Assembly (NCBI GenBank): GCA_964542055.1 | Contig: CAZITB010000001.1 | Coordinates: forward strand, 1 to 55,158 | Reading direction: 5' to 3' | Source: an uncultured Candidatus Kuenenia sp. | GTDB taxonomy: Bacteria > Planctomycetota > Phycisphaerae > Sedimentisphaerales > CAMDDF01 | DNA: 55,158 bases | In this document: positions 1,656 to 34,302 of the stretch, in pieces | Layout: the number at the start of each line of letters is the position of its first letter | How positions within the stretch are numbered: position 1 is the first letter of the stretch | Notes under the pieces: generated by a model | Database searches by the model: none | The model's input: only the letters and a program-made list of their open reading frames with translations | What the model was told of the DNA's origin: nothing | Position numbers and translations under genes: made by a program

Positions 1656-2879
1656 TCAAATAGAACTGAAATAGTTAAGTGAATCTTTGAACGGCTTCAA
1701 AGCCCTCTCAAAAATACCAAGCGAATATGAAATGCAAACACCGTAATTGGTAATTGGCACATTTGCGGATTTGCATTTCATTATTCGTGAAAGCATTTCC
1801 CGCCTGTTTGTCATACAACCGCCGCACTGAATGACCAGCGCATAATCCGAAAGATTATCAGGAAAATCATGCCCCTGACAGACATCGAATTCCAGCTTGC
1901 AACCAGTAAACTGCCTCAGCCATCTTGGAATTTTAACCCTGCCGATATCATCAGCTATAGGGTGATGCGTACAGGATTCTGCTATCAGAATTTTGTCCCC
2001 GCTCTTAAGATAATCGATCTTCAGCGCCCCATTTACAAACGTATTCAAATCACCCTTATACCTTGCAAACAAAATCGAAAACGAAGTCATCGGGATTCCA
2101 TCCGGTGTGTCTGCCGAAACTTTCAAAAATGCTTGAGAATCCGTAATCACTATCGCAGGCGGCATACTCAACTTGCTTAAAGCATCCTTAAGCTCCCGCT
2201 CTTTGACAACTACACAATATGAATCATTGTCCAGTAATTCACGTATTGTCTGCACCTGAGGCTGAATCAATCTCCCTTTCGGCGCCTCCTTATCGATCGG
2301 AACCACCAAAACCGCCATTTCACCCGGCTTAACAAGATCGCTTACAATAGAAGGATTGTTCAAAAACTCCGCAGGGGTTGATTTAATCAATGCCTGCCTC
2401 AGCTCTGTTATCCCTTTATTTTCGATAGCCGTCGCCAAAACCACCGGAACATTTTCACTTTTCAATTTAGTGACCAAATCCTCGGACGGTTCAGCGATAT
2501 CAGACTTGTTAAAAACCACGATGACAGGAATTTCAAATTTCTGCAGTTTCTCTTTAATAGTATCTTCGAACTGCCCCCACTGACCTTCGCTTGCCACAAT
2601 GATTCCAATATCAGTTCGATCGAATATCTGCCTTGTTCTTTCTATTCTTTTCTCACCCAGCGCCCCAATATCATCCACCCCTGCAGTATCAATAAACAGC
2701 ACCGGTCCAATAGGCAAAAGCTCCATCGGCTTTTCCACCGGATCCGTCGTTGTTCCCGCAACTTCAGAGACTATCGAAACAGACTGGCGAGTTATCGCAT
2801 TTAATAGCGAAGATTTACCTGCGTTTCGCCTGCCGAAAATTCCAATATGTAGCCTTAAAGATTTAGGTGTCTTTCTCAT
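1656..2879 (-). CDS. hydF: [FeFe] hydrogenase H-cluster maturation GTPase HydF
   Basis: N-terminal P-loop GRRNAGKSSLLN with NKSD and DTAG GTPase motifs. C-terminal Cys/His cluster-binding region (CTHH ... QCGGC). Sits in a cluster with hydE and hydG. Confidence 0.9.
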   Translation of the reverse strand: MRKTPKSLRLHIGIFGRRNAGKSSLLNAITRQSVSIVSEVAGTTTDPVEKPMELLPIGPVLFIDTAGVDDIGALGEKRIERTRQIFDRTDIGIIVASEGQWGQFEDTIKEKLQKFEIPVIVVFNKSDIAEPSEDLVTKLKSENVPVVLATAIENKGITELRQALIKSTPAEFLNNPSIVSDLVKPGEMAVLVVPIDKEAPKGRLIQPQVQTIRELLDNDSYCVVVKERELKDALSKLSMPPAIVITDSQAFLKVSADTPDGIPMTSFSILFARYKGDLNTFVNGALKIDYLKSGDKILIAESCTHHPIADDIGRVKIPRWLRQFTGCKLEFDVCQGHDFPDNLSDYALVIQCGGCMTNRREMLSRIMKCKSANVPITNYGVCISYSLGIFERALKPFKDSLNYFSSI

Positions 2880-4276
2880 TTTTTTATGTTAAACCCCAAT
2901 TTCGTTACTGCTTCAGGACTGATCATTTGCTCAAACTCATGAGCAGTCAAAATCTCTTTTTCGATAACAACCTGCTTTACAGTCTTATTTCCCGATGCAG
3001 CTAGCTGAACCACTTCCTCAGCTTTTTTATAGCCTATCCGCTCAATCAAAGCCGTTACCACAGCTGTTGAACTTTGTATATGCTGTTGGCACTTGTCCCG
3101 ATTAACTTCAATTCCGCTTATGCAATTTTTGGCAAGTACGCTGACTGCTTGTTTCAAAATAGATATTGAATGAAGCAAACAATCAGCTATCAAAGGCATA
3201 AATTGATTCAATTCTAAATTCCCAGCAGATGCCCCTTGAAAAATCGCCCGATCATAAGCATCAACCATAATAGCCGCTTGCGATACCGCCTCCGGAATTA
3301 CAGGATTAACTTTGCCCGGCATTATCGAAGAACCCGCCTGTTTAACCGGCAGCATAATTTCGCCTATACCCGCATCAGGGCCCGAAGATAGAACCCGCAA
3401 ATCATTCGATACTTTCAACAGCGAACTAGCCAGCCCTTTCAAAATACCCGAAACCTCAACGAAAACATCACAGTTTTGAGTATTATCGATTATATTTTCA
3501 GCCCGGCCAAGCGACAAACCAGTCAAGTTCTTTAATTCATCAACCACTTTAAAAATATATTGCCTGGGCGCTCCCAATCCCGTACCTATTGCGGTTCCTC
3601 CAAGATTTACCACCCTCAGCCTTTCACAGCATTTATATATTCGCCACCGATCCCTTGCAAACGCTTCCCCATACGCAGAAAACTGACGCCCCACCGTAGT
3701 CAAAACCGCATCCTGTAATTGTGTTCTTCCAACCTTAACGATATCGGCAAACTCATGTTCCTTCTGTTGACATGTTTCAGTTAAACCAATAACCTCATTT
3801 TCCAATTCATTAAGCAAAAAAATTGCTGCTGTCTTCAAACTTGTCGGATAAGCATCATTAGTGGATTGGTGGAGATTGACAGTACCGATAGGATCAATAA
3901 TATCATACCTGCCGATTTCCTGCCCCATTATCTGCAAAGCCCGGTTGGCTATCACTTCGTTCACATTCATATTGGTCGATGTCCCCGCACCTCCTTGCAA
4001 CGCATCAACCAGAATATGCCCGTCCAGCATACCAGCTATCATTTCATTACATGCCTGCTCAACAGCTGAAAAAATCTTTTCTTCAATAAACCCAAGCTCA
4101 TAATTAACCCTTACAGCCGCTAGCTTAACATAACCAAAGCCGCTGATTAGCTTCGGATGAACCATGCGACCGCTAATCGGAAAATTCTCCACCGCCCTTG
4201 CGGTATGAATCCCGTAAAGTACATCTCTGGGCAACTGCATTTCACCTAGCAAATCTTTTTCAATTCTACATTCCAT
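2876..4276 (-). CDS. aspA: aspartate ammonia-lyase / class II fumarase family lyase embedded in the hyd maturase cluster
   Basis: 466 aa with the family signature GSSIMPGKVNP and the TQLQDAV motif. Its stop overlaps the hydF start by 4 nt, and its start abuts the hydG stop. Confidence 0.75.
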   Translation of the reverse strand: MECRIEKDLLGEMQLPRDVLYGIHTARAVENFPISGRMVHPKLISGFGYVKLAAVRVNYELGFIEEKIFSAVEQACNEMIAGMLDGHILVDALQGGAGTSTNMNVNEVIANRALQIMGQEIGRYDIIDPIGTVNLHQSTNDAYPTSLKTAAIFLLNELENEVIGLTETCQQKEHEFADIVKVGRTQLQDAVLTTVGRQFSAYGEAFARDRWRIYKCCERLRVVNLGGTAIGTGLGAPRQYIFKVVDELKNLTGLSLGRAENIIDNTQNCDVFVEVSGILKGLASSLLKVSNDLRVLSSGPDAGIGEIMLPVKQAGSSIMPGKVNPVIPEAVSQAAIMVDAYDRAIFQGASAGNLELNQFMPLIADCLLHSISILKQAVSVLAKNCISGIEVNRDKCQQHIQSSTAVVTALIERIGYKKAEEVVQLAASGNKTVKQVVIEKEILTAHEFEQMISPEAVTKLGFNIKK

Positions 4277-5698
4277 TTAGAAACACATATCCCTATTATC
4301 TGTGTTTTTAATAATTTCTAATCTCTCGATAACCTTGGATTTGATATCGCCCTCAGGCAGCTTTTCAAGCTCATCTTTTATAAGCTTTTCACCAATCTTA
4401 CGAGTTTTTTCCGAAGCATAGTCCACAAGATATTCCTCCAAAGTTGTCAATGCATTTGGTGTGCAGTACCTTTTAATAAAACCAGGTATCGCAAATTCCA
4501 TAAAATGCTCACCGGTTCTGCCAAGCCGATAACAAGATGTACAAAAACTCGGCACATAACCATCCTGCATCAGTTCCGCCATAACTTCATCCAGACTCCG
4601 AATATCTCCAAGCGAAAACTGCTCTTTCTCCATAACCTGCGCATCACCAGCTTCGGTATATCCGCCAAGCTCGATCCTGCTGCCGGCATCTATTTGCGAC
4701 ACGCCAAAAGCCATAACCTCCCTTCGAAGTTTCGGCTTTTCACGTGCAGTCAGAATCAAACCGGTATAAGGCACCGCCAATCGTAAAATAGCCACCAGCT
4801 TCTTAAAATCATCATCATTTACAATATGATCTGTAACAATGTCGGCGCCGCTTGCAGGCTGCAGCCTTGGAAAACTAATCGTATGAGGCCCTACTCCATA
4901 AGTCCTCTGCAAAAACAGCGAATGTGCAACCAGACCAAGCACCTCAAATCTCCAGTCATAAAGCCCTATCAGCGCGCCTATTCCGACATCATCACAGCCC
5001 CCTTCAAACGCCCGGCTAAGCCCATCAAGCCTGTAAAGATAATCACCTTTCCTGGTCTTTTCAGGATGATATAACCGGTAAGCCTGCTTGTTATAAGTTT
5101 CCATAAAAATCTGGTATGTTCCGATGCCCGCCTGTTTAACGATCTTGTAACCCTCAACATTCAAAGGAGCCGCGTTTATATTAGCCCTGCGAATCTCTCC
5201 CGTGCCGCTCTTAATACTGTAAACATTTTTAACAGTCTTGGCGATAAACTCCGGATCATAATCCACATGCTCACCGAAAACCAGGATCAACCGTTTATGC
5301 CCGGCATTTTCTAATGCAACAACCTGTCCGGAAATTTCTTCTTCGCTTAGCGTTCGCCTGTACGCATCCGGATTTGATATCCTGAAACTGCAATATTTAC
5401 AATCATTAACGCATTTGCTGCCAATATAAAGAGGGGCAAAAAGAACTATCCTGTTTCCATAAACAGTTTCCTTGAGCGTGCGAGCCGCATCAAATATTTC
5501 CTCGACCAGTTCCTTATCAATGGTATTAACCAACACAGCCGTTTCTTCAACAGTAAGTGCCTCTTTGGAAAGGCTTTTACTTATTATTTCTCGCACACGT
5601 TCTTTGGACACATTCTCATTATTCAAAAGACCGTGCAAATAATCATCATCTATAAAATCGACCGCATTAGCGGAAAGTTTTTTTTCATTCTCAAACAT
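4277..5698 (-). CDS. hydG: [FeFe] hydrogenase maturase HydG (radical SAM tyrosine lyase)
   Basis: Radical-SAM motif CVNDCKYC plus the C-terminal Cx2Cx22C motif (CTSCYRLGRTGEHFMEFAIPGFIKRYC). 473 aa. Confidence 0.92.
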   Translation of the reverse strand: MFENEKKLSANAVDFIDDDYLHGLLNNENVSKERVREIISKSLSKEALTVEETAVLVNTIDKELVEEIFDAARTLKETVYGNRIVLFAPLYIGSKCVNDCKYCSFRISNPDAYRRTLSEEEISGQVVALENAGHKRLILVFGEHVDYDPEFIAKTVKNVYSIKSGTGEIRRANINAAPLNVEGYKIVKQAGIGTYQIFMETYNKQAYRLYHPEKTRKGDYLYRLDGLSRAFEGGCDDVGIGALIGLYDWRFEVLGLVAHSLFLQRTYGVGPHTISFPRLQPASGADIVTDHIVNDDDFKKLVAILRLAVPYTGLILTAREKPKLRREVMAFGVSQIDAGSRIELGGYTEAGDAQVMEKEQFSLGDIRSLDEVMAELMQDGYVPSFCTSCYRLGRTGEHFMEFAIPGFIKRYCTPNALTTLEEYLVDYASEKTRKIGEKLIKDELEKLPEGDIKSKVIERLEIIKNTDNRDMCF

Positions 5699-6749
5699 AA
5701 TTCTCCTGATGTTTTTTTAAATACTTTACTGAACTACCTCTGCCCTGTCCCACTGTCCTGCCGATTGCCTTAATCCTGTTGTGAATCTCCTCGTGAAAAC
5801 TATCGCATTCATTCACGCAAACCTTTTTCGGGTATATCGAGTAAAGCTTTCTAAACTTTTTAGGCGAAACATTCGGCATCACAACATTAGCACCTCTTGA
5901 CAAGGCTTTTTCATAGCCGTCAACCGGATTCAACGTCGCCAAAGCTGTCGTCGCAGGTATATTCGTCTCGGGACAAATTATTCGCGCCAGGGCATAAGCT
6001 TTATAAGTTGTTATTTCATCCGCTGGAACCTGCTGATCGGACAACATCAACTCAGCGGCATTTTTTCCTAAAATTGTATTCTCATCAGGAACATAAGGCC
6101 CCAACCCGATCATATGTAGGTCAAGAGTTCTAAACAACTCGATATCATCTGCTAAAGATTCATAGCTTTGCCCCGGAATACCAACCATTACTCCGCTGCC
6201 AACCTCATAATCCAGCTTTTTTAAAATCTCTAAAAGCTCTATCCTATGAACCTTGGAACCGGGATGAATCTTATCAAAAAGTTCACGATCAGACGTCTCA
6301 AACCTTAGCAGGTACCTGTCCGCACCTGCATCTCGCCAGAGCTTATAAACGCCCTGGTCCCATTCGCCTAAACTCAGAGTAATCGCAAAATTTCCGATCT
6401 CTTTGAGCTTTCTAATTATCCTGCTGACCCATTCCGGATCAATTGACTTGTCCTCACCCGACTGCAAAACCAAAGTATTATAGCCGTACTTTTTAGCTGA
6501 ATTTCCGCACTCGATTATCTCTTCCTCGCTGAGCCGATACCTTTCAATACTTTTATTTGAAGCATTCAAATTGCAGTACAAACATCCCCTAGAACAAATA
6601 TTAGAAACCTCGATCAACCCCCGCAAATGAACCTCATTACCAACTTTCTGACGCCTGACATGATCGGCCATATTCCAAAGCTCGTCCAGCCTCGCTTGGT
6701 CCTGCTCTCTAAGCCAGCGTAATATTTGACCTCGGTCCATTACCGACAC
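5691..6749 (-). CDS. hydE: [FeFe] hydrogenase maturase HydE (radical SAM)
   Basis: Radical-SAM motif CSRGCLYC near the N-terminus. 352 aa, BioB-like fold. Overlaps the hydG start by 8 nt. Confidence 0.88.
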   Translation of the reverse strand: MSVMDRGQILRWLREQDQARLDELWNMADHVRRQKVGNEVHLRGLIEVSNICSRGCLYCNLNASNKSIERYRLSEEEIIECGNSAKKYGYNTLVLQSGEDKSIDPEWVSRIIRKLKEIGNFAITLSLGEWDQGVYKLWRDAGADRYLLRFETSDRELFDKIHPGSKVHRIELLEILKKLDYEVGSGVMVGIPGQSYESLADDIELFRTLDLHMIGLGPYVPDENTILGKNAAELMLSDQQVPADEITTYKAYALARIICPETNIPATTALATLNPVDGYEKALSRGANVVMPNVSPKKFRKLYSIYPKKVCVNECDSFHEEIHNRIKAIGRTVGQGRGSSVKYLKKHQENYV

Positions 6750-6752
6750 CTG

Positions 6753-7880
6753 CTACTTAACATCAAAAAGTTCTACTCTAAAAGTCGAACCAACGTCCGG
6801 CTCACTTTCAACCTTCGCATCTCCGTTATAAAACGTCGCCAGCTTCTTAACAATTGAAAGCCCCAACCCAGAGCCAAGAATCTTATGCGTCTTTTGATTT
6901 TTGATCCTTACAAAATCCTTAAACAGTTTAGCCGCCTCTTCCTTGCTCATGCCGATACCTGTATCAGAGACCACAATTATAAGCTTATCGTCTTCAAGTC
7001 GAATATTCAAATCTACCCGCCCATTATCCTTATTGTACTTAACCGCATTTGAAAGCAGATTATTGAGAATAATTTGGATTTCACTTGGGTCAGCATGAAA
7101 ATAAATATCTCCCTCAATATCCTTATTGATCTGGATATTCCGATCTTTGCCCATGATTGCAACATTTTCAAGACTTAATTCCGCAATCTCATTTATATTA
7201 ACTTCCTTGATCTCACGTTTCTTTTGCTTCGATTCGATCCTGGTCATATCCAAGAGATCGAAGATCAATTTCTGCATTCCCTCCAAGCGAATAAGCGACC
7301 TGTCAATGATATGATCATAAGCAGCAGTATTATCGCCCAAATCCTTATTCTTGATAATGTTTAAATAACCCTCGATCGCCGCCAAAGGCGATTTTAATTC
7401 ATGGGCTAAAACTGAAATAAACTCAAATCTCAGCCGCTTCTTATCTTCAGCCATCTTTCTGGCCTGCCGTTGAAAGATCAATCGGCTTGAAGCTTTTTTA
7501 ATCATATTTTTAAGTTCAGTCGGTGTAAATGGCTTAGCCAGAAAATCATAAGCACCGTTTCGTGTCGCCTCAACCGCTGTTTCCAAAGAAGCATAAGCTG
7601 TAATCATTATCGCCAGAATATCTTTGCTTTTAAGATCTAATTTTTTGAGCAAATCCAGTCCTGTCATCCCGGGCAGCTTATGATCTAAAAGCAAAATATT
7701 AGGACAATCATTCTCAATCATCTCGAAGCCAATTTCCGCATTTTCGGCACTGGTAACTTCAAAGCTTACTTCCTGTCCCACATCCGGCAAATCAACAGTG
7801 AACTTCGACAAGGCTCTTTCAATTCCCGTACGCATTCCTGATTCATCATCGATAATGAGAATTTTCAGGATATCAGTCAT
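6753..7880 (-). CDS. hybrid receiver-histidine kinase (N-terminal REC, then HisKA + HATPase)
   Basis: REC motifs (IIDDE, LLLDHKLPGMTG, AKPF) are followed by the H-box SVLAHELKSPL and N/G boxes (LLSNAVKYN, DTGIGM, GSGLGLSIV). Confidence 0.85.
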   Translation of the reverse strand: MTDILKILIIDDESGMRTGIERALSKFTVDLPDVGQEVSFEVTSAENAEIGFEMIENDCPNILLLDHKLPGMTGLDLLKKLDLKSKDILAIMITAYASLETAVEATRNGAYDFLAKPFTPTELKNMIKKASSRLIFQRQARKMAEDKKRLRFEFISVLAHELKSPLAAIEGYLNIIKNKDLGDNTAAYDHIIDRSLIRLEGMQKLIFDLLDMTRIESKQKKREIKEVNINEIAELSLENVAIMGKDRNIQINKDIEGDIYFHADPSEIQIILNNLLSNAVKYNKDNGRVDLNIRLEDDKLIIVVSDTGIGMSKEEAAKLFKDFVRIKNQKTHKILGSGLGLSIVKKLATFYNGDAKVESEPDVGSTFRVELFDVK

Positions 7881-8265
7881 TATATTTCTCCAGCAGAAGA
7901 TCTATTTCATGCTTCAACTGCTCATAACGCAAAGGTTTCGAAAGAAACGCGTCAGCCTTGATCCATGAATGCTCTTCAGGGGTTCTTGCCTCGAAATCCA
8001 TCCCGGTATCGCTGGTTACCGCTGTAACTATTATCACCGGAATATCAGGGTCTTTCTGCTTGATATGGTACGCAAGCGCAAAACCACCGTCAGCGTTTTC
8101 CATCATCAAATCAACTATAGCCAAATCAGGCACAGTACTTTCAAGCAATGCTTCTGCTTCAGCCTGGCTGCACGCCTTTACTATTTCAAAATCTTTTTGG
8201 AGCATTATTTCCATCTGATCCAAAAAATCAGGATCATCGTCAACTAACAATACCTTCTTTGCCAT
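7873..8265 (-). CDS. single-domain response regulator (REC only)
   Basis: 130 aa with VLLVDDDPD, IVDLMM and SKPL receiver motifs and no output domain. Overlaps the downstream REC-HK start by 8 nt. Confidence 0.85.
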   Translation of the reverse strand: MAKKVLLVDDDPDFLDQMEIMLQKDFEIVKACSQAEAEALLESTVPDLAIVDLMMENADGGFALAYHIKQKDPDIPVIIVTAVTSDTGMDFEARTPEEHSWIKADAFLSKPLRYEQLKHEIDLLLEKYND

Positions 8266-8296: not shown

Positions 8297-10339
8297 TTAA
8301 TTCAAAGTTTCTTCTATTGTTATATCTTTTTTCGTCTCGTCTTTTTTCTTGGGCAGCACCACCGTAAACGTCGTGCCGGTGGGCCCTTTTTCAGCATCAG
8401 CATTCGATTCTACCAGGATATCGCCATTGTGCATTTTTACAATACCATAAGTTACCGCAAGGCCAAGACCTGTACCCAGCCCCATCTCCTTGGTTGTAAA
8501 AAACGGCTCAAAAATCTTCGATAGAATATCTTCCCTGATTCCGATTCCAGTATCACTTACTTTTATTTCAATTCTATCGTCTTTATCGTTAAGTTCAATG
8601 CTCAAATCTCCCTTTTCGTTCATGGCTGAAATCGCATTAGAAACAAGGTTAGTCAAAACCTGTCCGATTTGATCGCTATCAATATATACAATATTATCGT
8701 CTAGATTATTTTCAATTTTTATATGTATTCTTGGATCAGACCTGTATGTCTGAACGGTACGACAAATTAACTCATAAATATCCGTCGGATGAAGCATTAC
8801 TTTATTTTTACGTGCAAAATTAAGCAAACCTGAAACGATCTTCTTACACCTGTCTGCCTGCTCGGTTATAATTTGCAAATCATCGCTTACTTGCTGATTA
8901 TCCTTTAACTCATCGAGCAGCAAGTGGGCATACATCAAAACCACACCAAGCGGATTATTCACTTCATGAGCAATTCCCGCAGCAAGCTGACCCATACTCG
9001 CAAGCTTTTCGGACTGCATCAAAGCCTCCTGCGTACTGGCAAGCTGAGTATTCGAACTGGCTAGCTGCTTTATAGTCTTATGAAGCCGCTCAATTGTAAA
9101 CGGCAGACACATTTCACTTTCAGCTAAACCCTTCAATATCGCAACCGCATGTTCCCGGCAGGTATCATAACCGCATGCTCCGCAGTTAAGCTCATCTTCT
9201 TTAGTAAACTTGCCCATTCTATGCAAAACATCATCGAGAACGGTATCGACCGGTATTTGAATTCTTTGATCATACTTTTCAAATTTTCGCGTAAGATCAA
9301 GCCCTTTGAGATTTTCAACATGGGCTTTCCATTGCTCAATATCAAAATTCTCTCTTCTTGATCGCGCGAATTCGCTGATTTTAGCCTGGCGATTAAACCT
9401 CGGGTTTGAATTTGACATTCCAGGGCCCATTATACACCCGCTGCATGCCAGAACTTCTAACAATTTTACTTGAAGATCACCAGAATCGAACTCTTTAAAA
9501 GCATCGATATAGCTGCTGCCGCCCTCTACTGCGATAACTTCTCCCTGGACCAAATCATCATTGATTTCAGCTGCCTGAAACAGCCCTCTGCCAATTGGAA
9601 AAATTGCACCGGTGCCCGCATGAGGTCCATCAAATTCAGACTCTTCAACTTCGCCGGATGTAATACCAGCTTCATCTAGCATCTCTCTTAGCTCCGCAAA
9701 AGTTAAAACCGCCTCAACTTCATCAGGAAGATTAACGCTAGATGCTTCACCTTTTTTAGCAATACACGGACCAATAAAAACTATCTTCAAATCCTCGCCA
9801 TGAAACTTCTTTAATGCTCTTGCCATCGCCACCATAGGCGAAACTATAGGTGCCAGATTGCCAACAAGTTCAGGATGATATCTTTCAACGTAAGCAACTA
9901 TGGATGGGCAGGTCGTCGCGATAAAACGGCACTTCGGGTCACATTCGCTCAACAGCCTTTTATACGCCTCCGCAACTAAATCCGCACCAAATGCAACTTC
10001 ATTAACCAGGTCAAAACCTAACTTTCTCAGCATTGCGACCACGGCTTTATAATTATAATCAGTAAATTCAGCAGGAAAACTCGGAGCAACTATAGCTGCA
10101 ACCTTTACGTTTTCGCTTAATAACTTTTTTACTTGAGGCTTGGAATCCTGAATTTTCTTCGCGCTCTGACTGCAAACCCTTACACAGTTACCACAACCAA
10201 TACATCGCTGGGGAATCACCTCCGCCTGACCATCCGCGATCCGGATAGCTTTAGCGGGGCATTCACGAACACATGTAAAGCATATTCGACAATGCTCTTT
10301 GATCGTGGTTACCAATGGTTTATTATCAGAATCTTTCAT
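8297..10339 (-). CDS. [FeFe]-hydrogenase-like sensor domain fused to a histidine kinase (HydS-like, kinase-linked)
   Basis: From N to C: a 2x[4Fe-4S] ferredoxin ([23 protein letters not shown]), then an H-domain-like region ([28 protein letters not shown]). This is followed by a Cx2Cx4Cx16C motif ([26 protein letters not shown]), a coiled coil, the H-box AHEVNNPL and an HATPase (DTGIGI, GTGLGL). Confidence 0.8.
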
Positions 10340-10341: not shown

Positions 10342-12063
10342 TTATTTAACAACTTCTCTGCGACCGTATTTAGTATGTAAAAGCTCATGACTCTTATGGC
10401 TCAAAGGCTTGCCCAAAAATTCTTTATAAAGCTTCTCAATAGACTTATTCTTGTGCGACACACGAATAGGCTCATCCCTATCGATCTTATAAAGAGTTTT
10501 CATTCTTGCAGCAACCGCATCAGAATTAGCATTCAAAGGTTGACCGCCTCCAGCGATACACCCGCCCGGACATGTCATTACTTCGATAAAGTGAATATCG
10601 TCTCTGCCTTCTTTGATTTGATCAAGCAGCTTTGATGCATTACCAAGCCCGCTGACAACGGCGACACCTATTTCCATATCATTGACTTTAACCTTAGCTT
10701 CTTTGAGGCCTTTATTGCCGCGAACTTCTTTAACATTCAAATCTTCCATTTCTTTGCCGGTTAACAAGTAATGCGCCGTTCTAATCGCCGCTTCCATTAC
10801 TCCACCGCTTGAACCAAAGAGTTTACCCGCCGTCGAACGCTCACCAAAAGGATTATCAGCCAAAGACGGCTCAAGGTTATTCATATCAATTCCATAAAGT
10901 CTGATCAGTTCCGCAAACTCTCTTGTCGTCAAAACTACATCAACATCCTGTGTAGCATTTCTGCCCATTTCAGGCCGCTCAGCCTCAAATTTCTTGGCTG
11001 TACAAGGCATCACAGAAACACTGTATATCTTCTTAGGGTCTATTCCCTCATTTTCAGCATAATAACTTTTTATAATCGCCCCTAACATCTGCTGCGGGCT
11101 CTTACAGGTCGAAAGATTTTCCATAAACTCAGGATAATGCTGTTCTACGAACTTGATCCATCCCGGTGAACAGCTTGTAATCATTGGTAATTTACCGCCG
11201 GTCTTAATTCGTTCAACAAGCTCTGAACCTTCTTCCATAATTGTCAAATCAGCGGAAAAACTCGTGTTAAACACTTTGGCAAAACCAAGGTTTCTAAATG
11301 CTGTTGTCATTATTCCATCTACATCAACACCGGATTTCATCCCGAATTCCTCTGCCAAACTAACTGAAACCGCCGGAGCATGCTGAACAACAACATGCAG
11401 ATCAGGGTCCTTCAAAGCATTAATAACATCTTTAACATTGCTCTGCTCTTTCAAAGCACCTGTAGGACATGCCAGAATACACTGACCGCAATTTATGCAG
11501 CTCGAAACGTTCAATCCCTGGTCAAACGCGGTGCTTACAACAGATTTACTTCCTCGACCGGTAAAATCTATCGCCGAAACACCTTGCACTTCTTCACAAA
11601 TTCTTACACATCTGCCGCAAAGGATACATTTGCTTGGATCGCGTACGATCGAAGGGCTTGAATTATCAATTTTATAATTATTTTTTTCACCCACATAAAC
11701 TCGTTCGCGTACACCGAAATCAGCCGCAAGTTTTTGAAGTTCGCAGTTATTGTTTCTCACGCAAAACAAACAGTCATCCGGGTGGTCTGCCAAAAGCAGC
11801 TCAACAATACTTTTTCTTGCCAGCATGACCCTTTTCGAATGCGTCTGCACTTTCATTCCTTCAGCTACCGGGTAAGCACAACTCGGCACCAAACCCGGGA
11901 CACCTTCGATTTCTACAACACACATTCGACAAGCACCGCTCGGAGCAAGCCCTTCTATATAGCAAAGCGTTGGAATTTCTATACCCGCTCTCCTAAGAGC
12001 CGCCAAAAGCATTTCATCTTTACGTGCGTCAATTTTTTTGCCGTTTACTTCTAAATTTATCAT
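10342..12063 (-). CDS. hydA: [FeFe] hydrogenase catalytic subunit (M3-type, HydABC-type partner)
   Basis: N-terminal 2Fe-2S region, a His/Cys cluster (HPDDCLFCVRNNNC) and two 4Fe-4S motifs. H-cluster motifs are MPCTAKKFE and EVMTCPGGCIAGGGQP. The L1 motif reads TSCSPGW rather than TSCCPxW. Confidence 0.9.
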   Translation of the reverse strand: MINLEVNGKKIDARKDEMLLAALRRAGIEIPTLCYIEGLAPSGACRMCVVEIEGVPGLVPSCAYPVAEGMKVQTHSKRVMLARKSIVELLLADHPDDCLFCVRNNNCELQKLAADFGVRERVYVGEKNNYKIDNSSPSIVRDPSKCILCGRCVRICEEVQGVSAIDFTGRGSKSVVSTAFDQGLNVSSCINCGQCILACPTGALKEQSNVKDVINALKDPDLHVVVQHAPAVSVSLAEEFGMKSGVDVDGIMTTAFRNLGFAKVFNTSFSADLTIMEEGSELVERIKTGGKLPMITSCSPGWIKFVEQHYPEFMENLSTCKSPQQMLGAIIKSYYAENEGIDPKKIYSVSVMPCTAKKFEAERPEMGRNATQDVDVVLTTREFAELIRLYGIDMNNLEPSLADNPFGERSTAGKLFGSSGGVMEAAIRTAHYLLTGKEMEDLNVKEVRGNKGLKEAKVKVNDMEIGVAVVSGLGNASKLLDQIKEGRDDIHFIEVMTCPGGCIAGGGQPLNANSDAVAARMKTLYKIDRDEPIRVSHKNKSIEKLYKEFLGKPLSHKSHELLHTKYGRREVVK

Positions 12064-12078
12064 TATAAACCCTTATTT

Positions 12079-13962
12079 TTACTCAATAATAACAGCGTCA
12101 AATGGACAAACCTGTTTACAGTTTCCGCAACCGATACACAGTTCATCAACGATATAATGAGGAGCCTTTCTAACACCCTTGATCGCGTCAACAGGGCACT
12201 TCTTGGCACACAAGGTACAACCTTTACACTTTTCCTCATCAATCTTATAATTCAGCAATTCAGTACAAACTCCGGCTGAACATTTTCTCTCATAAATATG
12301 ATCTTCATATTCTTTACGGAACCATCGCAAGGTACTCAAAACCGGATTAGGAGCTGTTTGACCAAGCCCGCAAAGACTCGTATCTTTAATCACATTGGCA
12401 AGCCTCTGCAAATTCATAATGCCCTTAAACCTGACAAGTGCATCTTTACCTTTTTCGTTCTTATGGCTTTGAGTTATCCTGTGCAAAATCTCAAGCATTC
12501 TCCGGGTACCTTCACGGCACGGAATACATTTTCCGCAACTTTCCCGCTGGATAAAATCCATAAAGAACTTCGCGACATCGACCATGCAGGTTCCTTCATC
12601 CATAACTACCATACCGCCCGAACCCATCATCGCGCCAACCGTTTTAAGCGATTCATAATCGATCTGAATATCGATATGCTCAGCAGGAATACATCCGCCC
12701 GAGGGTCCGCCCATCTGAACCGCCTTGAACTTCTTATCATTTTCGATACCGCCGCCGATATCATTGACTATTTCCCGAACAGTAGTTCCCATTGCAACTT
12801 CGATCAAACCGGTATTCTTGACTTTACCGCTTAACGCAAAAACTTTAGTACCTTTGCTTGTCTCTGTTCCGATTGAATGGAAAAACTCAGGACCCTTGGA
12901 AATGATCTCAGGCAGGTTTGCCAGTGTTTCGACATTATTGATGACCGTAGGCTTATTAAATACTCCCTGAACCGCTGGATACGGTGGCCTCGGCCTGGGC
13001 ATACCGCGTTTACCTTCGATACTGTGAATAAGAGCTGTCTCTTCACCGCAAACAAAAGCACCGGCACCCTTTTTGATTACTATATTCAACTCGAAACCGC
13101 TTCTAAGGATATTCTCACCAAGCAAACCAAACTTCTTCGCTTCCTCGATAGCCTTCTCTAACCTCTTAATTGCCAGAGGATATTCTGCACGGATATAAAT
13201 ATAAGCCTTTGTAGCCCCAATCGCGTAAGCAGCTATCGCAATACCTTCCAGCAGCCTGTGCGGATCGCCTTCGATTACCGCCCTGTCCATAAACGCACCC
13301 GGATCACCTTCATCAGCATTGCATACCAGGTACTTCTGGTCCGCCGAAGCATTCAAGGCGAACTTCCACTTCCTTCCAGCAGGAAATCCGCCGCCGCCGC
13401 GGCCTCTCAATCCGCTTGATTCAACCAGGTCACAAACTTCAACTGGTGTGTGATTCGAAATTATCTTCGCAAATCCCTTGTAACCGCCCTTGGCTGCATA
13501 TTCCTCGATACTGGTCGGGTCAATCAGTCCGCAGTTCTTAAGCACTAGCCGAGTCTGAGACTTAAAGAACGGATGTTCATTGATAAACACAACACCATCC
13601 CAGCCCTGCGTTTCTTCCGATAGCTTCTGCTGATACAAAACGCTTTCACTCAACGGCTGACCGTCCAAAACACTCTTTAGAATCTCTTCTACATTATCAT
13701 TCTTAACTCGCTTAAACGCCAGCCTGTTCTTGCCCGGTACTTCAACTTCCATGATCGGCTCAACTGTACAATAACCGATACAGCCAACCTCAACCACTTC
13801 GGCATTTACTTTTTGAGCATCAATAAATTCATTGATCTTTTGCAATGTTTCACCGGCACCGGCACCAAGCCCGCAGGTTCCGGTTCCAAGATAGATATAT
13901 GTTTTCGCCTGGTCTTTTTCTTTGACAGGTATATTGATAATAGGTTCATTAACTTTGGTCAT
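12079..13962 (-). CDS. hydB: NADH-binding flavoprotein subunit of bifurcating hydrogenase (NuoF-like)
   Basis: 627 aa. Thioredoxin-like 2Fe-2S N-terminus, NuoF core (GRGGGGFPAG, NADEGDPGAF, CGKCIPCREG) and a C-terminal 2x[4Fe-4S] (CKGCTLCAKKCP, CIGCGNCKQVCP). Confidence 0.9.
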   Translation of the reverse strand: MTKVNEPIINIPVKEKDQAKTYIYLGTGTCGLGAGAGETLQKINEFIDAQKVNAEVVEVGCIGYCTVEPIMEVEVPGKNRLAFKRVKNDNVEEILKSVLDGQPLSESVLYQQKLSEETQGWDGVVFINEHPFFKSQTRLVLKNCGLIDPTSIEEYAAKGGYKGFAKIISNHTPVEVCDLVESSGLRGRGGGGFPAGRKWKFALNASADQKYLVCNADEGDPGAFMDRAVIEGDPHRLLEGIAIAAYAIGATKAYIYIRAEYPLAIKRLEKAIEEAKKFGLLGENILRSGFELNIVIKKGAGAFVCGEETALIHSIEGKRGMPRPRPPYPAVQGVFNKPTVINNVETLANLPEIISKGPEFFHSIGTETSKGTKVFALSGKVKNTGLIEVAMGTTVREIVNDIGGGIENDKKFKAVQMGGPSGGCIPAEHIDIQIDYESLKTVGAMMGSGGMVVMDEGTCMVDVAKFFMDFIQRESCGKCIPCREGTRRMLEILHRITQSHKNEKGKDALVRFKGIMNLQRLANVIKDTSLCGLGQTAPNPVLSTLRWFRKEYEDHIYERKCSAGVCTELLNYKIDEEKCKGCTLCAKKCPVDAIKGVRKAPHYIVDELCIGCGNCKQVCPFDAVIIE

Positions 13963-14442
13963 TTATGACACCTTCTTTCGATATATTTCCAAAATTCTTT
14001 TTACATCATCCGGGTTGACATTCGCATGGAATTGTCCATCGATACAAATAACAGGAGCAAGCCCGCACGCACCTATACAAGCCACAACTTCCAAACTGAA
14101 ATTACCGTCTTTGGTCGTCTCGCCCGCATCGATGGCCAATTCACTTTTGAGTGCTTCCAGAACCTTCGCCGATCCTTTTACATGGCAAGCCGTTCCCCGA
14201 CATACCTGTATTTCGAATTTCCCCGGCTTATTGAACCTGAACTGATTATAAAATGTAGCAACTCCGTAAATCTTAGCCGCTGACAGATTTAAATGCTGCC
14301 CAATTTCGATAATGGCTTGCTTTGATAAATAACCATCCAATTGCTGAACTTCCTGCAGAATCGGGATCAAACTGTCCCTTTTCGCATCTGTGTACTTTTT
14401 CAAAACTTCCTGTGCTTTAGTTGTTACCACTTTTTTCTCCAT
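13963..14442 (-). CDS. hydC: NuoE-like 2Fe-2S subunit of bifurcating hydrogenase
   Basis: NuoE motifs LIPILQEVQ, VCRGTACHVKG and CIGACGLAP. Start moved to the internal MEKKVV, since the tracked ORF start at 14502 lies deep inside rex. The start remains uncertain because the RBS is weak. Confidence 0.85.
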   Translation of the reverse strand: MEKKVVTTKAQEVLKKYTDAKRDSLIPILQEVQQLDGYLSKQAIIEIGQHLNLSAAKIYGVATFYNQFRFNKPGKFEIQVCRGTACHVKGSAKVLEALKSELAIDAGETTKDGNFSLEVVACIGACGLAPVICIDGQFHANVNPDDVKRILEIYRKKVS

Positions 14443-15070
14443 CAACTTTTTGAGTTTTTCTAGCAAAATGCGCCACTTTCTCCAGCGACATTGTGAAATC
14501 AACTTTATCTACATAAACATTTTCCGGAACATTGAGTTTTACCGGTGCAAAATTTACTATTCCATTAACCCCAGCGGAAACCAGCTTTTCAGCCACTTCC
14601 TGTGCGTAAGTAACGGGTACTGCTATTATTGCCAGATTGATTTTGTCTTTTTTGATGACATCTTCCATTTCATCAGTGGCATAAACTCTGCATCCATGAA
14701 TTACTCGACCGATTTTGTCTGGGTCTTTATCAAAACACGCTTTGATTACAACATTTGGCCTACGGCCGTGAAAAAAAGCCAATACCGCCCTGCCTAAATT
14801 ACCCACACCCACCAATGCCACACCATCGGGCTCATGCGAGACAAGAAACTTATCTATACCTTCTTTTAGATCTTTCAGATCATATCCAGTATTGGCCCGC
14901 CCCTGGGTACCAATAAACATAAAATCCCTGCGAACCTGGGAACTGGTAACACCTGATAGTTCTGCAAGTTGATGAGAATAAACAGACTTTTTGCCGCCTT
15001 TGAGCATCTCCTCAATAAGCCTTCTGTAAAAGCTCAATCTTTCAACAGTTTTAACTGGGGTAGAATTCAC
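14417..15070 (-). CDS. rex: redox-sensing transcriptional repressor Rex
   Basis: Winged-helix N-terminus (RLSFYRRLIEEM, SHQLAELSGVTSSQVRRD) and Rossmann motif GVGNLGRAV. GTG start with an AGAGGG RBS. Its 3' end overlaps hydC. Confidence 0.9.
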   Translation of the reverse strand: MNSTPVKTVERLSFYRRLIEEMLKGGKKSVYSHQLAELSGVTSSQVRRDFMFIGTQGRANTGYDLKDLKEGIDKFLVSHEPDGVALVGVGNLGRAVLAFFHGRRPNVVIKACFDKDPDKIGRVIHGCRVYATDEMEDVIKKDKINLAIIAVPVTYAQEVAEKLVSAGVNGIVNFAPVKLNVPENVYVDKVDFTMSLEKVAHFARKTQKVDGEKSGNN

Positions 15071-15093: not shown

Positions 15094-15111
15094 TTGTTAT
15101 TAGGTTAACAG
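15094..15111. promoter_or_regulatory. candidate Rex operator
   Basis: TTGTTAT-TAGG-TTAACAG matches the TTGTTAA-N4-TTAACAA variant of the Rex box at 16 of 18 positions, counting the 4 unconstrained spacer bases (12 of the 14 specified half-site positions). It lies 24-41 nt upstream of the rex GTG. Extra TTGTGAA/TTGTTAA half-sites lie at 15119-15140. Confidence 0.4.
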
Positions 15112-15130
15112 CGTTACAATATTCACAATA

Positions 15131-33652: not shown

Positions 33653-33719
33653 AGGCAAAACCGTTAATATAGGTAACTAAATAACTGTTGTTTATGAGAA
33701 AAGGCGAGGGCAAGGTAAA

Positions 33720-34283: not shown

Positions 34284-34302
34284 TCCAACGAGTGAGGAGT
34301 TG

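What the first reader, a model, noticed from the sequence alone, without database searches (positions are those of the whole stretch)
8297..10339. Hydrogenase-like H-domain wired directly to a histidine kinase, with no PAS domain between them
The 680-aa protein begins with two CxxCxxCxxxCP ferredoxin motifs. It then carries counterparts of the three H-cluster motifs, all modified:
- ATTCPS aligns with TSCCP, so Thr sits at the proton-relay Cys position and only the cluster-ligand Cys is kept.
- GPCIAKKGE aligns with MPCxxKxxE.
- [13 protein letters not shown] aligns with ExMxCxxGCxxGGGQP, but with Cx2C spacing and no GGGQP.

Next comes an exact Cx2Cx4Cx16C motif (CGACGYDTC...C), as in HydS-type putative sensory hydrogenases. 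This is followed by a coiled coil running straight into the kinase H-box (AHEVNNPL) and ATPase domain.

Loss of the relay Cys is the known hallmark of sensory (group C) [FeFe] hydrogenases. Kinase-linked members are, to my knowledge, known only from genome classification.

Whether this divergent site binds a true H-cluster or just an FeS cluster cannot be told from sequence. The location between hydA and the maturases suggests H2- or redox-dependent phosphorylation.
Basis: partly seen in the sequence, partly recalled or inferred. Interest (0 to 1): 0.75.

Follow-up and report, generated by a model that had tools for sequence, protein, structure and literature searches.

The report
Hydrogenase-like sensor fused to histidine kinase
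This gene encodes a signalling kinase whose sensor half is a hydrogenase-like iron-sulfur domain; it is real and probably a hydrogen or redox sensor, but it belongs to a widespread type that is already catalogued and has never been tested biochemically.

Summary
Window 8297-10339, on the minus strand, encodes a 680-aa protein with two [4Fe-4S] motifs, an [FeFe]-hydrogenase H-domain, a Cx2Cx4Cx16C motif, a coiled coil and a HisKA/HATPase_c kinase. There is no PAS domain.

All four H-cluster cysteines and nearly all diiron-pocket positions are invariant in 80 homologues from many phyla. The group-A proton-relay positions are lost or variable. The Cx2C spacing in motif 3 defines the clade.

The distance from the last cluster cysteine to the phospho-accepting histidine changes only in steps of seven residues. 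This argues for direct coiled-coil coupling.

The gene sits in a tight operon: rex-hydCBA, this gene, a receiver, a receiver-kinase hybrid, then hydE-hydG-lyase-hydF. That order recurs across phyla.

The type is not new. HydDB (2016) lists kinase-linked group C [FeFe] hydrogenases. A 2024 Hydrogenedentota paper describes this cassette as "bfuT" with a histidine-kinase domain, also found in Caldithrix abyssi and Bacteroidota. No biochemical study was found.

Best reading: an H2 or redox-poise sensor kinase that governs hydrogen metabolism. Cofactor identity and signal are unproven.

Verdict: a new member of a known kind, of moderate interest.

The parts
8297..10339 (-). Complete ORF, 680 aa: hydrogenase-domain sensor histidine kinase (HydS/'BfuT'-type with a fused kinase)
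10163..10300 (-). N-terminal F-domain, residues 14-59, with two [4Fe-4S] motifs (C17/20/23/27 and C46/49/52/56)
   Evidence: Pfam Fer4 families. All eight Cys are conserved in 79-80 of 80 homologues. Coordinates checked.
9413..10105 (-). [FeFe]-hydrogenase H-domain, residues 79-309
   Evidence: Pfam PF02906, E 1.9e-49. PDB sequence hits to HydA1 and CpI, E 1e-28 to 1e-23. Model pLDDT is mostly 86-97 over residues 61-240 and 69-86 over 241-310. Foldseek top hits are all [FeFe] hydrogenases, TM 0.64-0.69 normalised to target.
9902..9922 (-). Motif 1 equivalent, IATTCPS. Thr143 sits at the CpI C299 relay position and Cys144 at the C300 ligand position.
9746..9772 (-). Motif 2 equivalent, GPCIAKKGE: Gly190/M353, Cys192/C355, Lys195/K358, Glu198/E361
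9419..9457 (-). Motif 3 equivalent, [13 protein letters not shown]: Leu297/M497, then Cys299-x2-Cys302 in place of C499-x3-C503
9191..9412 (-). [quoted passage not shown] It is the least conserved segment.
9107..9184 (-). C-terminal Cx2Cx4Cx16C cluster motif (C386, C389, C394, C411), Pfam FeS PF04060
   Evidence: (81 of 82 homologues). The motif is shared with TmHydS and TamHydS according to PMC8163306.
8996..9106 (-). Signalling coiled coil, residues 412-448. Heptad positions are L419, L426, L433, L440 and A447. It starts directly after the last cluster ligand, Cys411.
   Evidence: Helices in the model. The Cys-to-His distance is quantised in steps of 7 across the family.
8807..8995 (-). HisKA/DHp domain, residues 449-511. 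The phospho-accepting His458 has its codon at 8966-8968.
8345..8680 (-). HATPase_c catalytic domain, residues 554-665. N, G1, F and G2 boxes are intact.
7873..8265 (-). Stand-alone receiver protein (130 aa), 31 nt downstream. Likely phosphotransfer partner or phosphate sink.
   Evidence: Pfam Response_reg. Adjacent to the kinase in 50 of 67 loci.
6753..7880 (-). Receiver-HisKA-HATPase_c hybrid (375 aa), overlapping the receiver gene by 8 nt. It is the most consistently linked partner.
   Evidence: Pfam. Downstream of the kinase in 59 of 67 loci.
10342..15070 (-). Upstream operon genes: rex (14417-15070), hydC (2Fe-2S thioredoxin-like, 13963-14502), hydB (NuoF-like, 12079-13962), hydA (10342-12063)
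   Evidence: Synteny.
1656..6749 (-). Downstream maturase genes: hydE (5691-6749), hydG (4277-5698), aspartase-class lyase (2876-4276), hydF (1656-2879)
   Evidence: Gene gaps run from -8 to +3 nt. No convincing internal terminator.

Best explanation
The gene encodes a soluble sensor histidine kinase. Its input module is a HydS-type ('sensory', group C) [FeFe]-hydrogenase unit made of three parts: an F-domain with two [4Fe-4S] clusters, an H-domain, and a C-terminal Cx2Cx4Cx16C cluster.

Proposed mechanism:
1. The HydE/G/F proteins encoded in the same operon mature the H-domain into an H-cluster. That cluster lacks the fast proton relay, so it binds and slowly equilibrates H2 rather than turning it over (inferred).
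2. The H2-dependent redox or conformational state of the H-domain and FeS module reaches the kinase through a continuous coiled coil. The coil begins right after the fourth ligand of the C-terminal cluster (Cys411) and runs in fixed heptad register to His458 in the DHp domain. The geometry is shown. That this is the signal path is inferred.
3. This shifts the balance between autokinase and phosphatase activity (inferred).
4. Phosphate passes to the adjacent stand-alone receiver and/or to the receiver domain of the adjacent receiver-kinase hybrid. The hybrid relays to an unidentified output. Linkage is shown; transfer is inferred.

The physiological role would be to adjust the co-encoded NADH-linked HydABC hydrogenase, and hydrogen metabolism generally, to H2 partial pressure or to H2/ferredoxin redox poise. 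Rex in the same operon would handle NADH/NAD+ sensing.
For: Architecture:
- Domains and motifs are established. No PAS is found in the protein or the family.
- The fold of residues 1 to about 430 matches only [FeFe] hydrogenases.

Conservation in 80 homologues from species genomes across more than 12 phyla:
- The CpI-equivalent cluster ligands and diiron-pocket positions are invariant: A230, P231, I268(V), A272, C300, P301, S323, P324, P354, C355, K358, E361, G422, C499 and C503.
- S232 is conserved in 79 of 80. F417 is F or Y in 79 of 80.
- The group-A proton-path positions are variable or lost: C299, E279, E282, R286 and S319.
- This pattern is what selection for a bound [2Fe] site without fast catalysis would produce.

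Precedent: characterised TmHydS and TamHydS lack the same relay residues and both methionines, yet bind an H-cluster and react with H2 (PMC8163306).

Coupling to the kinase: the distance from the last cluster Cys to the H-box His is 47 residues in 118 of 120 close relatives and 76 of 79 GTDB-locus homologues. Among 50%-identity representatives it takes the values 33, 40, 47, 54 and 68, with 26 of 29 in one heptad register.

Modularity: the same Fer4/H-domain/FeS module is found N-terminal to several output types. These are HK, HK+REC, PAS-HK, GAF-HK, sigma-54 activators (direct or through PAS), PAS alone and MCP domains. This is typical of a portable input domain.

Kinase competence: H, N, G1 and G2 residues are invariant.

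Synteny:
- hydA immediately upstream in 60 of 75 loci.
- Receiver-kinase hybrid downstream in 59 of 67.
- Receiver adjacent in 50 of 67.
- hydE/G/F downstream in 25 of 54.

The operon is tightly packed, with gaps of -8 to +31 nt apart from the nominal rex/hydC overlap, and has no convincing terminator.
Against: - No experiment exists for any kinase-fused member.
- The C499-C503 loop is one residue shorter (Cx2C) than in every characterised [FeFe] hydrogenase and in PAS-type HydS, and GGGQP is replaced by G(P/A/S)G. Because C503 bridges the cubane and the diiron site, this could change or abolish [2Fe] binding.
- The mSystems authors reported difficulty recognising P1-P3 motifs in another kinase-like-ATPase-bearing group C subtype.
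- In TamHydS the C-terminal cluster is not reduced by H2, and its mutation barely affects activity (PMC13104023). A simple model of 'H2 reduces the C-terminal cluster, which moves the helix' is therefore doubtful.
- hydE/G/F linkage is equally explained by the neighbouring catalytic HydA.
- No DNA-binding output is encoded in the cassette, so the regulated target is unknown.
- I could not inspect model coordinates, so the pocket geometry was not examined.
Confidence: 0.6

Rival explanations
1. FeS-only redox sensor. The H-domain binds only the [4Fe-4S] cubane, with no diiron subsite. Together with the F-domain and the C-terminal cluster, it reports the reduction state of the ferredoxin pool, or of HydABC, to the kinase.
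For: The Cx2C spacing and the loss of GGGQP in motif 3 are unique to this clade. A ferredoxin-like F-domain is present. Related proteins with clearly degenerate H-domains exist (L093 and L035: motif 2 lost, only a partial Fe_hyd_lg_C match), so decay of the site has happened in this superfamily.
Against: Positions that matter only for the [2Fe] subsite are invariant across phyla. These are the K358/E361 pair, the A230-P231-S232 loop, S323-P324, A272, and the F417 and G422 equivalents. A plain cubane site would not need them. The degenerate relatives show what relaxation looks like, and this family does not look like that.
Confidence: 0.2
2. Sensor of O2, CO or other cluster damage. Oxidative loss or inhibition of the H-cluster or the C-terminal cluster switches the kinase. 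This would protect the oxygen-sensitive hydrogenase system, in analogy to the FeS-containing kinase NreB.
For: H-clusters and exposed [4Fe-4S] clusters are intrinsically sensitive to O2 and CO (established knowledge). TamHydS reacts rapidly with O2 and has unusual CO behaviour (PMC8163306). The fourth ligand of the C-terminal cluster sits at the start of the signalling helix.
Against: Nothing specific in the sequence points to O2 rather than H2. The strict linkage to hydABC and frequent linkage to hydEFG, and the conserved diiron pocket, are explained more simply by H2 sensing.
Confidence: 0.1
3. Catalytic or electron-transfer subunit. The protein is a fourth subunit ('T') of the HydABC complex with a metabolic role, and the kinase part is secondary.
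For: The mSystems paper names it BfuT and treats it as part of the cluster. The Ace Lake study raised a metabolic role for another group C enzyme that lies next to bifurcating subunits.
Against: The group-A proton pathway is absent. Characterised relatives have very low turnover. The kinase motifs are invariant. The module is fused to many signalling outputs.
Confidence: 0.07

Closest known systems
'BfuT' of sub-type V BfuABC clusters: a HydDB group C3 [FeFe] hydrogenase with a histidine-kinase domain. Reported in Hydrogenedentota, Caldithrix abyssi DSM 13497 (HydDB reference WP_006928132.1) and Bacteroidota (PMC11406978).
   Same: The position directly downstream of hydA/bfuA is the same. My related loci include Hydrogenedentota and Calditrichota genomes, among them the CSSed162cmA_463 genome used in that paper (L061). 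They also include Bacteroidales loci with a second HydS-like gene upstream, as that paper reports. The fused kinase domain matches the paper's description.
   Different: Sequence only: 50-62% identity to those phyla, with the nearest database relative at 73%. The window appears to be planctomycete (Phycisphaerae-like), judged from the names of its best hits. That paper never uses the term 'response regulator', and the passages I read do not discuss the Cx2C variant or the coiled-coil register.
TmHydS (Thermotoga maritima, M2f, group C) and PAS-type HydS with an adjacent PP2C phosphatase, for example the Clostridium amylolyticum protein in L002
   Same: Both have an F-domain with two [4Fe-4S] clusters, an H-domain lacking the C299 relay and the proton path, Gly at M353, Cx2Cx4Cx16C, and linkage to hydABC. 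The L002 protein is 38% identical over residues 14-414.
   Different: HydS has a PAS domain after the C-terminal cluster, no kinase, and the normal Cx3C spacing in motif 3. Here the PAS domain is absent, the kinase is fused directly and the spacing is Cx2C.
TamHydS (Thermoanaerobacter mathranii, M2e, 'group D')
   Same: No PAS domain. Leu at M497. C-terminal Cx2Cx4Cx16C. [quoted passage not shown]
   Different: In TamHydS the kinase-like ATPase is a separate gene and M353 is Ser; here the kinase is fused and M353 is Gly. I could not obtain the TamHydS sequence, so its identity and motif 3 spacing were not compared.
Regulatory [NiFe] hydrogenase HoxBC with the kinase HoxJ and regulator HoxA (group 2b, 'histidine kinase-linked'; HydDB Table 1)
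   Same: The functional logic is the same: a slow, non-energy-conserving hydrogenase reports H2 to a histidine kinase that controls hydrogenase expression.
   Different: The metal site and fold are unrelated. Sensor and kinase are separate polypeptides, and HoxJ carries a PAS-like domain. This is an analogy only.
Coiled-coil-coupled sensor kinases in which linker length shows heptad periodicity, such as engineered LOV/PAS-kinase fusions and S-helix kinases (own knowledge, not checked here)
   Same: Linker lengths are restricted to one heptad register between the sensor and the phospho-accepting His.
   Different: The sensor here is an FeS/hydrogenase module, not a PAS, LOV or HAMP domain.

Membership tests
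[FeFe] hydrogenase superfamily (H-domain, Pfam PF02906) | H-domain fold and sequence profile | tested here: met
   PF02906 E 1.9e-49. PDB hits to HydA1 and CpI. Foldseek top 50 hits are all [FeFe] hydrogenases.
[FeFe] hydrogenase superfamily (H-domain, Pfam PF02906) | Four cysteines that ligate the [4Fe-4S]H cubane (CpI C300, C355, C499, C503) | tested here: met
   C144, C192, C299 and C302 align to them and are invariant in 80 of 80 homologues. The spacing of the last pair is Cx2C rather than Cx3C.
[FeFe] hydrogenase superfamily (H-domain, Pfam PF02906) | Canonical signatures TSCCP / MPCxxKxxE / ExMxCxxGCxxGGGQP | tested here: not met
   The protein reads ATTCP / GPCIAKKGE / [13 protein letters not shown]. 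NCBIfam hydrogenase models score below their cut-offs (B1: 193 vs 450; group A: 109 vs 406).
[FeFe] hydrogenase superfamily (H-domain, Pfam PF02906) | Bound [2Fe] subcluster and H2/H+ reactivity | not testable with these tools
   Only indirect evidence is available: the pocket residues K358, E361, A230-P231-S232, S323-P324, A272, F417 and G422 are conserved.
Putative sensory [FeFe] hydrogenases (HydDB group C; HydS, M2f/M2e-like) | Loss of the C299 relay and of the group-A proton pathway (E279, S319, E282, R286) | tested here: met
   The aligned residues are T143, A125, A163, R128 and E132. These positions vary across the family. The criterion comes from PMC8163306.
Putative sensory [FeFe] hydrogenases (HydDB group C; HydS, M2f/M2e-like) | N-terminal 2x[4Fe-4S] domain plus a C-terminal Cx2Cx4Cx16C motif | tested here: met
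   The motif is present in 81 of 82 homologues.
Putative sensory [FeFe] hydrogenases (HydDB group C; HydS, M2f/M2e-like) | Phylogenetic placement with HydS-type sequences, apart from group A | tested here: met
   Neighbour-joining tree on 296 columns. The kinase family is one clade. Its sisters are the Bacteroidales HydS-like proteins and then PAS-type HydS. There were no bootstraps, and HydDB reference sequences, Nar1 and TamHydS were not included.
Putative sensory [FeFe] hydrogenases (HydDB group C; HydS, M2f/M2e-like) | PAS domain after the C-terminal cluster (defines M2f/TmHydS-type) | tested here: not met
   No PAS hit in the protein or in 45 of 45 relatives. The model is all-helical over residues 310-450.
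Putative sensory [FeFe] hydrogenases (HydDB group C; HydS, M2f/M2e-like) | Genomic linkage to a group A hydrogenase and to regulatory genes | tested here: met
   hydA lies upstream in 60 of 75 loci, and the receiver and receiver-kinase genes are adjacent.
Putative sensory [FeFe] hydrogenases (HydDB group C; HydS, M2f/M2e-like) | HydDB k-NN subgroup call (C1, C2 or C3) | not testable with these tools
   HydDB was not available. The literature assigns the kinase-domain 'bfuT' type to C3, and assigns to C1 another type that carries a histidine-kinase-like ATPase domain and in which P1-P3 are hard to recognise. HydDB's own label for C1 is 'histidine kinase-linked'.
HisKA-class two-component sensor histidine kinases | H-box His in a DHp domain, and N, G1, F and G2 boxes in the HATPase_c domain | tested here: met
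   HisKA 2.8e-15 and HATPase_c 1.1e-26. H458, D596, G598, G600, G622, G624 and G626 are invariant in 80 of 80; N564 and N568 are conserved in 79 of 80 with one gap.
HisKA-class two-component sensor histidine kinases | Cognate receiver domain | tested here: inconclusive
   Two receiver-containing genes are adjacent and conserved, and both have the acidic pocket, Asp, Thr and Lys residues by inspection. Which one, if either, is phosphorylated was not testable.
   No Nar1 sequences were available to include. Indirectly, the nearest relatives are all bacterial HydS-type proteins and the K358/E361 pair is invariant.

The most novel reading that the evidence does not exclude
The Cx2C motif-3 variant marks a distinct, unstudied subclade of hydrogenase-derived input modules. 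Members are fused without PAS to histidine kinases or sigma-54 activators, and the Bacteroidales paralogue belongs with them. In this subclade the cofactor or its chemistry would differ from every characterised H-cluster. Signalling would work mechanically, from the last ligand of the C-terminal cluster through a register-locked coiled coil. Here it would feed a receiver plus receiver-kinase relay that has no DNA-binding output and could act post-translationally on HydABC or on H-cluster maturation.
Probability: 0.2. Interest if true: 0.7.

Novelty: new member of a known kind. Interest (0 to 1): 0.4.

Why it matters
Whether 'sensory' [FeFe] hydrogenases really sense H2, and how they signal, is still open. 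Only TmHydS and TamHydS have been characterised, and neither has a measurable output. Recent work argues against the obvious redox-relay model (PMC13104023).

A member whose H-domain is fused in fixed register to a histidine kinase provides a direct biochemical readout: autophosphorylation with and without H2. This would make the question testable. The family is common in anaerobes from many phyla that drive H2 cycling in sediments, digesters and guts, so its function bears on how fermenters tune H2 production.

This window adds no new principle beyond what genome surveys already list. Its value is as one more well-conserved candidate. The family-level observations made here also matter: an invariant diiron pocket, Cx2C as a clade marker, a heptad-locked linker and a conserved two-receiver relay.

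Tried and rejected
- The + strand translation of the given coordinates is full of stops; the gene is on the minus strand.
- The search for related loci with the single protein chose poorly conserved peptides and returned only 16 loci. It was replaced by an alignment-based scan.
It was redone with A2.
- Greening et al. 2016 (ISME J) could not be read. The HydDB paper was used instead.
- A Rex operator consensus search gave chance-level matches (6 found against 5.15 expected). A palindrome upstream of rex, found by eye, is only a candidate.
- No sigma-54 promoter and no sigma-54 activator was found in the window.
- No exact copy of the protein is on record in the assembly index, so the source sample is unknown.
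- The TSCSP motif of the neighbouring HydA at first looked anomalous, with Ser at the C300 position. The same motif occurs in the solved A. woodii HydA1 structure, so I dropped it as an anomaly.
- I considered whether the extra Cys in the 'EVLCCxGC' relatives could restore Cx3C spacing. It cannot for this protein: that position is Ala here and in a subset of relatives, while the Cx2C pair is invariant.
- A Pfam scan of all 150 representatives exceeded the size limit and was split in two.
Full report
**1. Observation**

The ORF listing places a 680-aa ATG-initiated ORF at exactly 8297..10339, but on the minus strand. The plus-strand translation is full of stops, and the minus-strand translation is open.

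All quoted motifs are present, and their nucleotide coordinates were verified:
- [12 protein letters not shown], residues 17-28.
- [12 protein letters not shown], residues 46-57. This motif ends in CS rather than CP.
- IATTCPS, 140-146.
- GPCIAKKGE, 190-198.
- [13 protein letters not shown], 295-307.
- CGACGYDTC-x16-C, 386-411.
- AHEVNNPL, with His458.

Pfam finds Fer4-type domains at 14-59, Fe_hyd_lg_C at 79-306 (E 1.9e-49), the 'FeS' family PF04060 at 384-413, HisKA at 449-511 and HATPase_c at 554-665. It finds no PAS domain.

**2. Equivalence to the H-cluster site**

The HMMER alignment to Clostridium pasteurianum CpI chains reproduces published numbering (Q195, A230-S232, C299/C300, S319, P324, M353, C355, K358, F417, M497, C499, C503). 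It gives these equivalences:
- Relay and first ligand: T143/C299 and C144/C300.
- Motif 2: G190/M353, C192/C355, K195/K358 and E198/E361.
- Motif 3: L297/M497, C299/C499 and C302/C503, with a one-residue deletion between the last two cysteines.
- Proton path: A125/E279, R128/E282, A163/S319 and E132/R286.
- Pocket: A85-P86-S87 / A230-P231-S232, S167-P168 / S323-P324, and F247/F417.

The protein lacks the group-A proton pathway entirely but keeps the ligands and most residues that contact the diiron subsite.

**3. Structure**

An AlphaFold2 model built on a 45-sequence alignment has mean pLDDT 76.6. Block means are mostly 86-97 over residues 61-240 and fall to 69-86 over residues 241-310. The DHp helices score low, as expected for a monomer model of a dimeric kinase.

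Between residues 310 and 450 the model contains only helices, with no PAS-like sheet. The Foldseek top 50 PDB hits are all [FeFe] hydrogenases (DdH, CpI, CbA5H, HydABC), with target-normalised TM of 0.47-0.69. No HydS-type structure appears among the PDB matches. Model coordinates could not be inspected.

**4. Family and distribution**

More than 7,900 proteins match at E<=1e-10. The best 120 are 59-73% identical and all share the Fer4/Fe_hyd_lg_C/FeS/HisKA/HATPase_c architecture. Their names point to Phycisphaerae, Sedimentisphaerales, Anaerohalosphaeraceae and Planctomycetes MAGs.

The best 80 span Planctomycetota, Hydrogenedentota, Lentisphaerae/Victivallales, Calditrichota, Fermentibacteria, Neomarinimicrobiota, Bacteroidales, Myxococcota, Spirochaetota, Acidobacteriota, Caldisericia and others.

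Against 1.84 billion 50%-identity representatives, residues 1-420 give 1,063 clusters at E<=1e-30.

**5. Conservation pattern**

I aligned 80 kinase-fused homologues taken from those genomes.
- Invariant in 80 of 80: the equivalents of A230, P231, I268 (Val), A272, C300, P301, S323, P324, M353 (Gly), P354, C355, K358, E361, G422, C499 and C503.
- Nearly invariant: S232 in 79 of 80, and F417 as F in 72 and Y in 7.
- Variable: C299 (T 40, S 25, D 7, N 5, A 3), and E279, E282 and R286. S319 is Ala in 73.

Only 25 of 250 H-domain positions are invariant, and most of them are these cluster or pocket positions. All sixteen accessory-cluster cysteines and the kinase H, N, G1 and G2 residues are also conserved, in 79 or 80 of 80.

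This is the pattern expected if a diiron site is retained and fast proton transfer is not selected. It is indirect evidence, not proof.

Characterised TmHydS (M497S, M353G) and TamHydS (M497L, M353S) lack the same residues and still carry an H-cluster that reacts with H2 (PMC8163306).

**6. The Cx2C variant**

All 74 of 82 homologues whose motif 3 matched the search pattern read E[VIL][LN][AC]CxGC[IV][MS]G[PAS]G. The C499/C503 pair itself is invariant in 80 of 80.

PAS-type HydS proteins recovered in the same searches have the usual Cx3C. An example is the 574-aa Clostridium amylolyticum protein, which is followed by a PP2C-like gene: EVSSCKGSCIGGP.

Among the 150 nearest representatives:
- Cx2C is found in all 31 scorable kinase-type proteins.
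- Cx2C is found in 13 of 15 sigma-54-activator-type proteins.
- Cx3C is found in 58 of the rest, and Cx2C in 27.

Many relatives have an extra Cys (EVLCCxGC). That position is Ala in this protein and is not invariant, so it cannot restore Cx3C here.

Cx2C is thus a clade marker. Its consequence for the bridging Cys is the main structural uncertainty.

**7. Phylogeny**

A neighbour-joining tree used 296 F- and H-domain columns from 72 sequences.
- The kinase-fused proteins form one clade.
- Their sister is a group of Bacteroidales HydS-like proteins of 616-630 aa, which also have the one-residue deletion.
- Next come the PAS-type HydS proteins.
- An MCP-fused protein and two degenerate proteins fused to a kinase-like ATPase domain (Pfam HATPase_c_2) lie further out.
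- Group A HydA sequences are well separated.

The tree has no bootstraps and does not include HydDB references, TamHydS or Nar1.

**8. Coupling to the kinase**

The fourth ligand of the C-terminal cluster, Cys411, is followed directly by a helix. Its positions 419, 426, 433, 440 and 447 are Leu, Leu, Leu, Leu and Ala.

The distance from that Cys to the H-box His:
- It is 47 residues in 118 of 120 close relatives and in 76 of 79 GTDB-locus homologues.
- Among 50%-identity representatives it takes the values 33, 40, 47, 54 and 68.
- That puts 26 of 29 in a single heptad register. The three exceptions are 38, 48 and 49.

Length variation in steps of seven is what a continuous signalling coiled coil predicts.

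One caution applies. In TamHydS the C-terminal cluster is not reduced by H2 and its disruption barely alters activity (PMC13104023). The transmitted signal is therefore probably not simply the redox state of that cluster.

**9. Genomic context**

On the minus strand the order is: rex, hydC (2Fe-2S thioredoxin-like), hydB (NuoF-like), hydA, this gene, a 130-aa receiver, a 375-aa receiver-HisKA-HATPase_c hybrid, hydE, hydG, an aspartase-class lyase, and hydF. NCBIfam assigns hydA to 'NADH-dependent [FeFe] hydrogenase, group A6' at 852 bits against a cut-off of 765.

Gene gaps run from -8 to +31 nt, apart from the nominal rex/hydC overlap. No convincing terminator lies inside.

In related loci:
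- hydA lies immediately upstream in 60 of 75.
- The receiver-kinase hybrid follows in 59 of 67.
- A receiver is adjacent in 50 of 67.
- hydB is upstream in 46 of 55 and rex in 32 of 55.
- hydE/G/F are downstream in 25 of 54.

No DNA-binding output is encoded in the cassette. No sigma-54 activator or sigma-54 promoter was found in the window.

**10. The module as a portable input domain**

Among the 150 nearest representatives, 43 carry HisKA, several dozen carry PAS (individual PAS models hit 7-10 and 18-27 members in the two halves) and 15 carry a sigma-54 interaction domain. Individual architectures include:
- Direct HK.
- HK+REC.
- PAS-HK.
- GAF-GAF-HK.
- A direct sigma-54 AAA+/HTH_8 activator.
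- A PAS-sigma-54 activator.
- PAS alone and MCP.

Such promiscuous fusion to signalling outputs is strong comparative evidence that the Fer4/H-domain/FeS unit is a sensor input.

**11. What is already known**

HydDB (PMC5037454, Table 1) defines three [FeFe] group C subtypes, all labelled putative:
- C1, 'histidine kinase-linked'.
- C2, 'chemotactic'.
- C3, 'phosphatase-linked'.

The 2024 mSystems study of Hydrogenedentota (PMC11406978) describes 'sub-type V' BfuABC clusters. [quoted passage not shown]
- The paper shows a predicted structure and cites a HydDB reference, WP_006928132.1.
- It reports the same organisation in Caldithrix abyssi DSM 13497.
- It reports a second bfuT upstream in three cultured Bacteroidota.

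My loci reproduce this, including the Bacteroidales second copy and the genome CSSed162cmA_463 (L061). That paper never uses the term 'response regulator'.

I found no paper reporting spectroscopy or phosphorylation assays on a kinase-fused member. This is limited to the held library.

**12. Verdict**

The finding is real and correctly read. The protein is a new member (closest relative 73% identical) of a known, widespread and genomically described kind.

The most likely function is an H2 or redox-poise sensor kinase for the hydrogenase operon (confidence about 0.6). The main rival is a cubane-only redox sensor (about 0.2).

Interest is moderate. The family is a good experimental handle on an open question, but this window adds no new principle.

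Noticed in passing
window 10342-12063 (-), hydA; HydA genes in loci L001-L096: The neighbouring catalytic HydA reads MITSCSPGW. By alignment this puts Ser at the position of the CpI C300 cubane ligand while keeping the C299 relay Cys. Of 70 HydA genes next to kinase-fused sensors, 57 share TSCSP. The solved Acetobacterium woodii HydA1 (PDB 7Q4V) has the same motif, so it is a known natural variant rather than a defect. I did not look up how the cubane is ligated there.
   Followed up: partly
P0143, P0165, P0169, P0174, P0191, P0198, P0203, P0209, P0210, P0219, P0220, P0243, P0253 and others: The same Fer4/H-domain/Cx2Cx4Cx16C module is fused directly, or through a PAS domain, to a sigma-54 AAA+ activator with an HTH_8 DNA-binding domain. 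These would be one-component, hydrogenase-domain transcription activators. There are 15 among the 150 nearest 50%-identity clusters, and most have Cx2C. I found no mention of this architecture in the literature searched.
   Followed up: partly
L087:2198-4090(-), L088:3062-4921(-), L092:3358-5208(-), L096:2448-4325(-): Bacteroidales loci carry a second HydS-like gene of 616-630 aa, transcribed divergently upstream of hydC. It has no recognisable PAS or kinase domain. It shares the one-residue deletion in motif 3, but the Lys and Glu of motif 2 are not in register with K358/E361 (L087, L088, L092), and L092 also lacks the first Cys of the pair. It is the sister clade of the kinase family and matches the 'second bfuT' reported in PMC11406978.
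   Followed up: partly
L093:453-2015(+), L035:2686-4290(-): These proteins consist of an N-terminal kinase-like ATPase domain of the anti-sigma-factor type (Pfam HATPase_c_2), then Fer4, a truncated H-domain and the FeS motif. Motif 2 is lost and only a partial Fe_hyd_lg_C match remains. They may be the 'group C1 with HATPase_C but no recognisable P1-P3' described for Hydrogenedentota. They show what a degenerate H-domain looks like.
   Followed up: partly
window 2876-4276 (-): An aspartase/fumarase-class lyase gene (Pfam Lyase_1 + FumaraseC_C) lies between hydG and hydF, with overlapping or abutting stop and start codons. The same placement occurs in 12 of the related loci. A role in H-cluster maturation, for example ammonia supply, is conceivable but was not examined.
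   Followed up: no
window ~15100-15117 (read on the - strand), upstream of rex: The palindrome CTGTTAACCTAATAACAA lies about 35 nt upstream of the rex start and resembles Rex operators (TTGTTAA-N4-TTAACAA type, recalled from memory). The consensus search gave only chance-level matches, so this is a candidate only.
   Followed up: partly
window 13963-14502 (-) vs 14417-15070 (-): The mechanical hydC ORF (TTG start, 179 aa) overlaps rex by 86 nt. Homologues are typically about 153-186 aa, so the true start is probably the internal Met (MEKKVV...).
   Followed up: no
window 33681-34283 (+) and 34252-36528 (+): A second two-component pair lies in the window: an HTH_17-receiver regulator (200 aa) and an HDOD-HisKA-HATPase_c kinase (758 aa). 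Nothing links it to the hydrogenase operon.
   Followed up: no
L017 (CAMDDF010000054.1): The closest species-genome locus has 69-81% protein identity across the operon and identical gene order. It is a 14.5-kb contig binned as 'Candidatus Kuenenia stuttgartiensis', whereas all other close relatives are named Phycisphaerae or Planctomycetes. It may be mis-binned.
   Followed up: no
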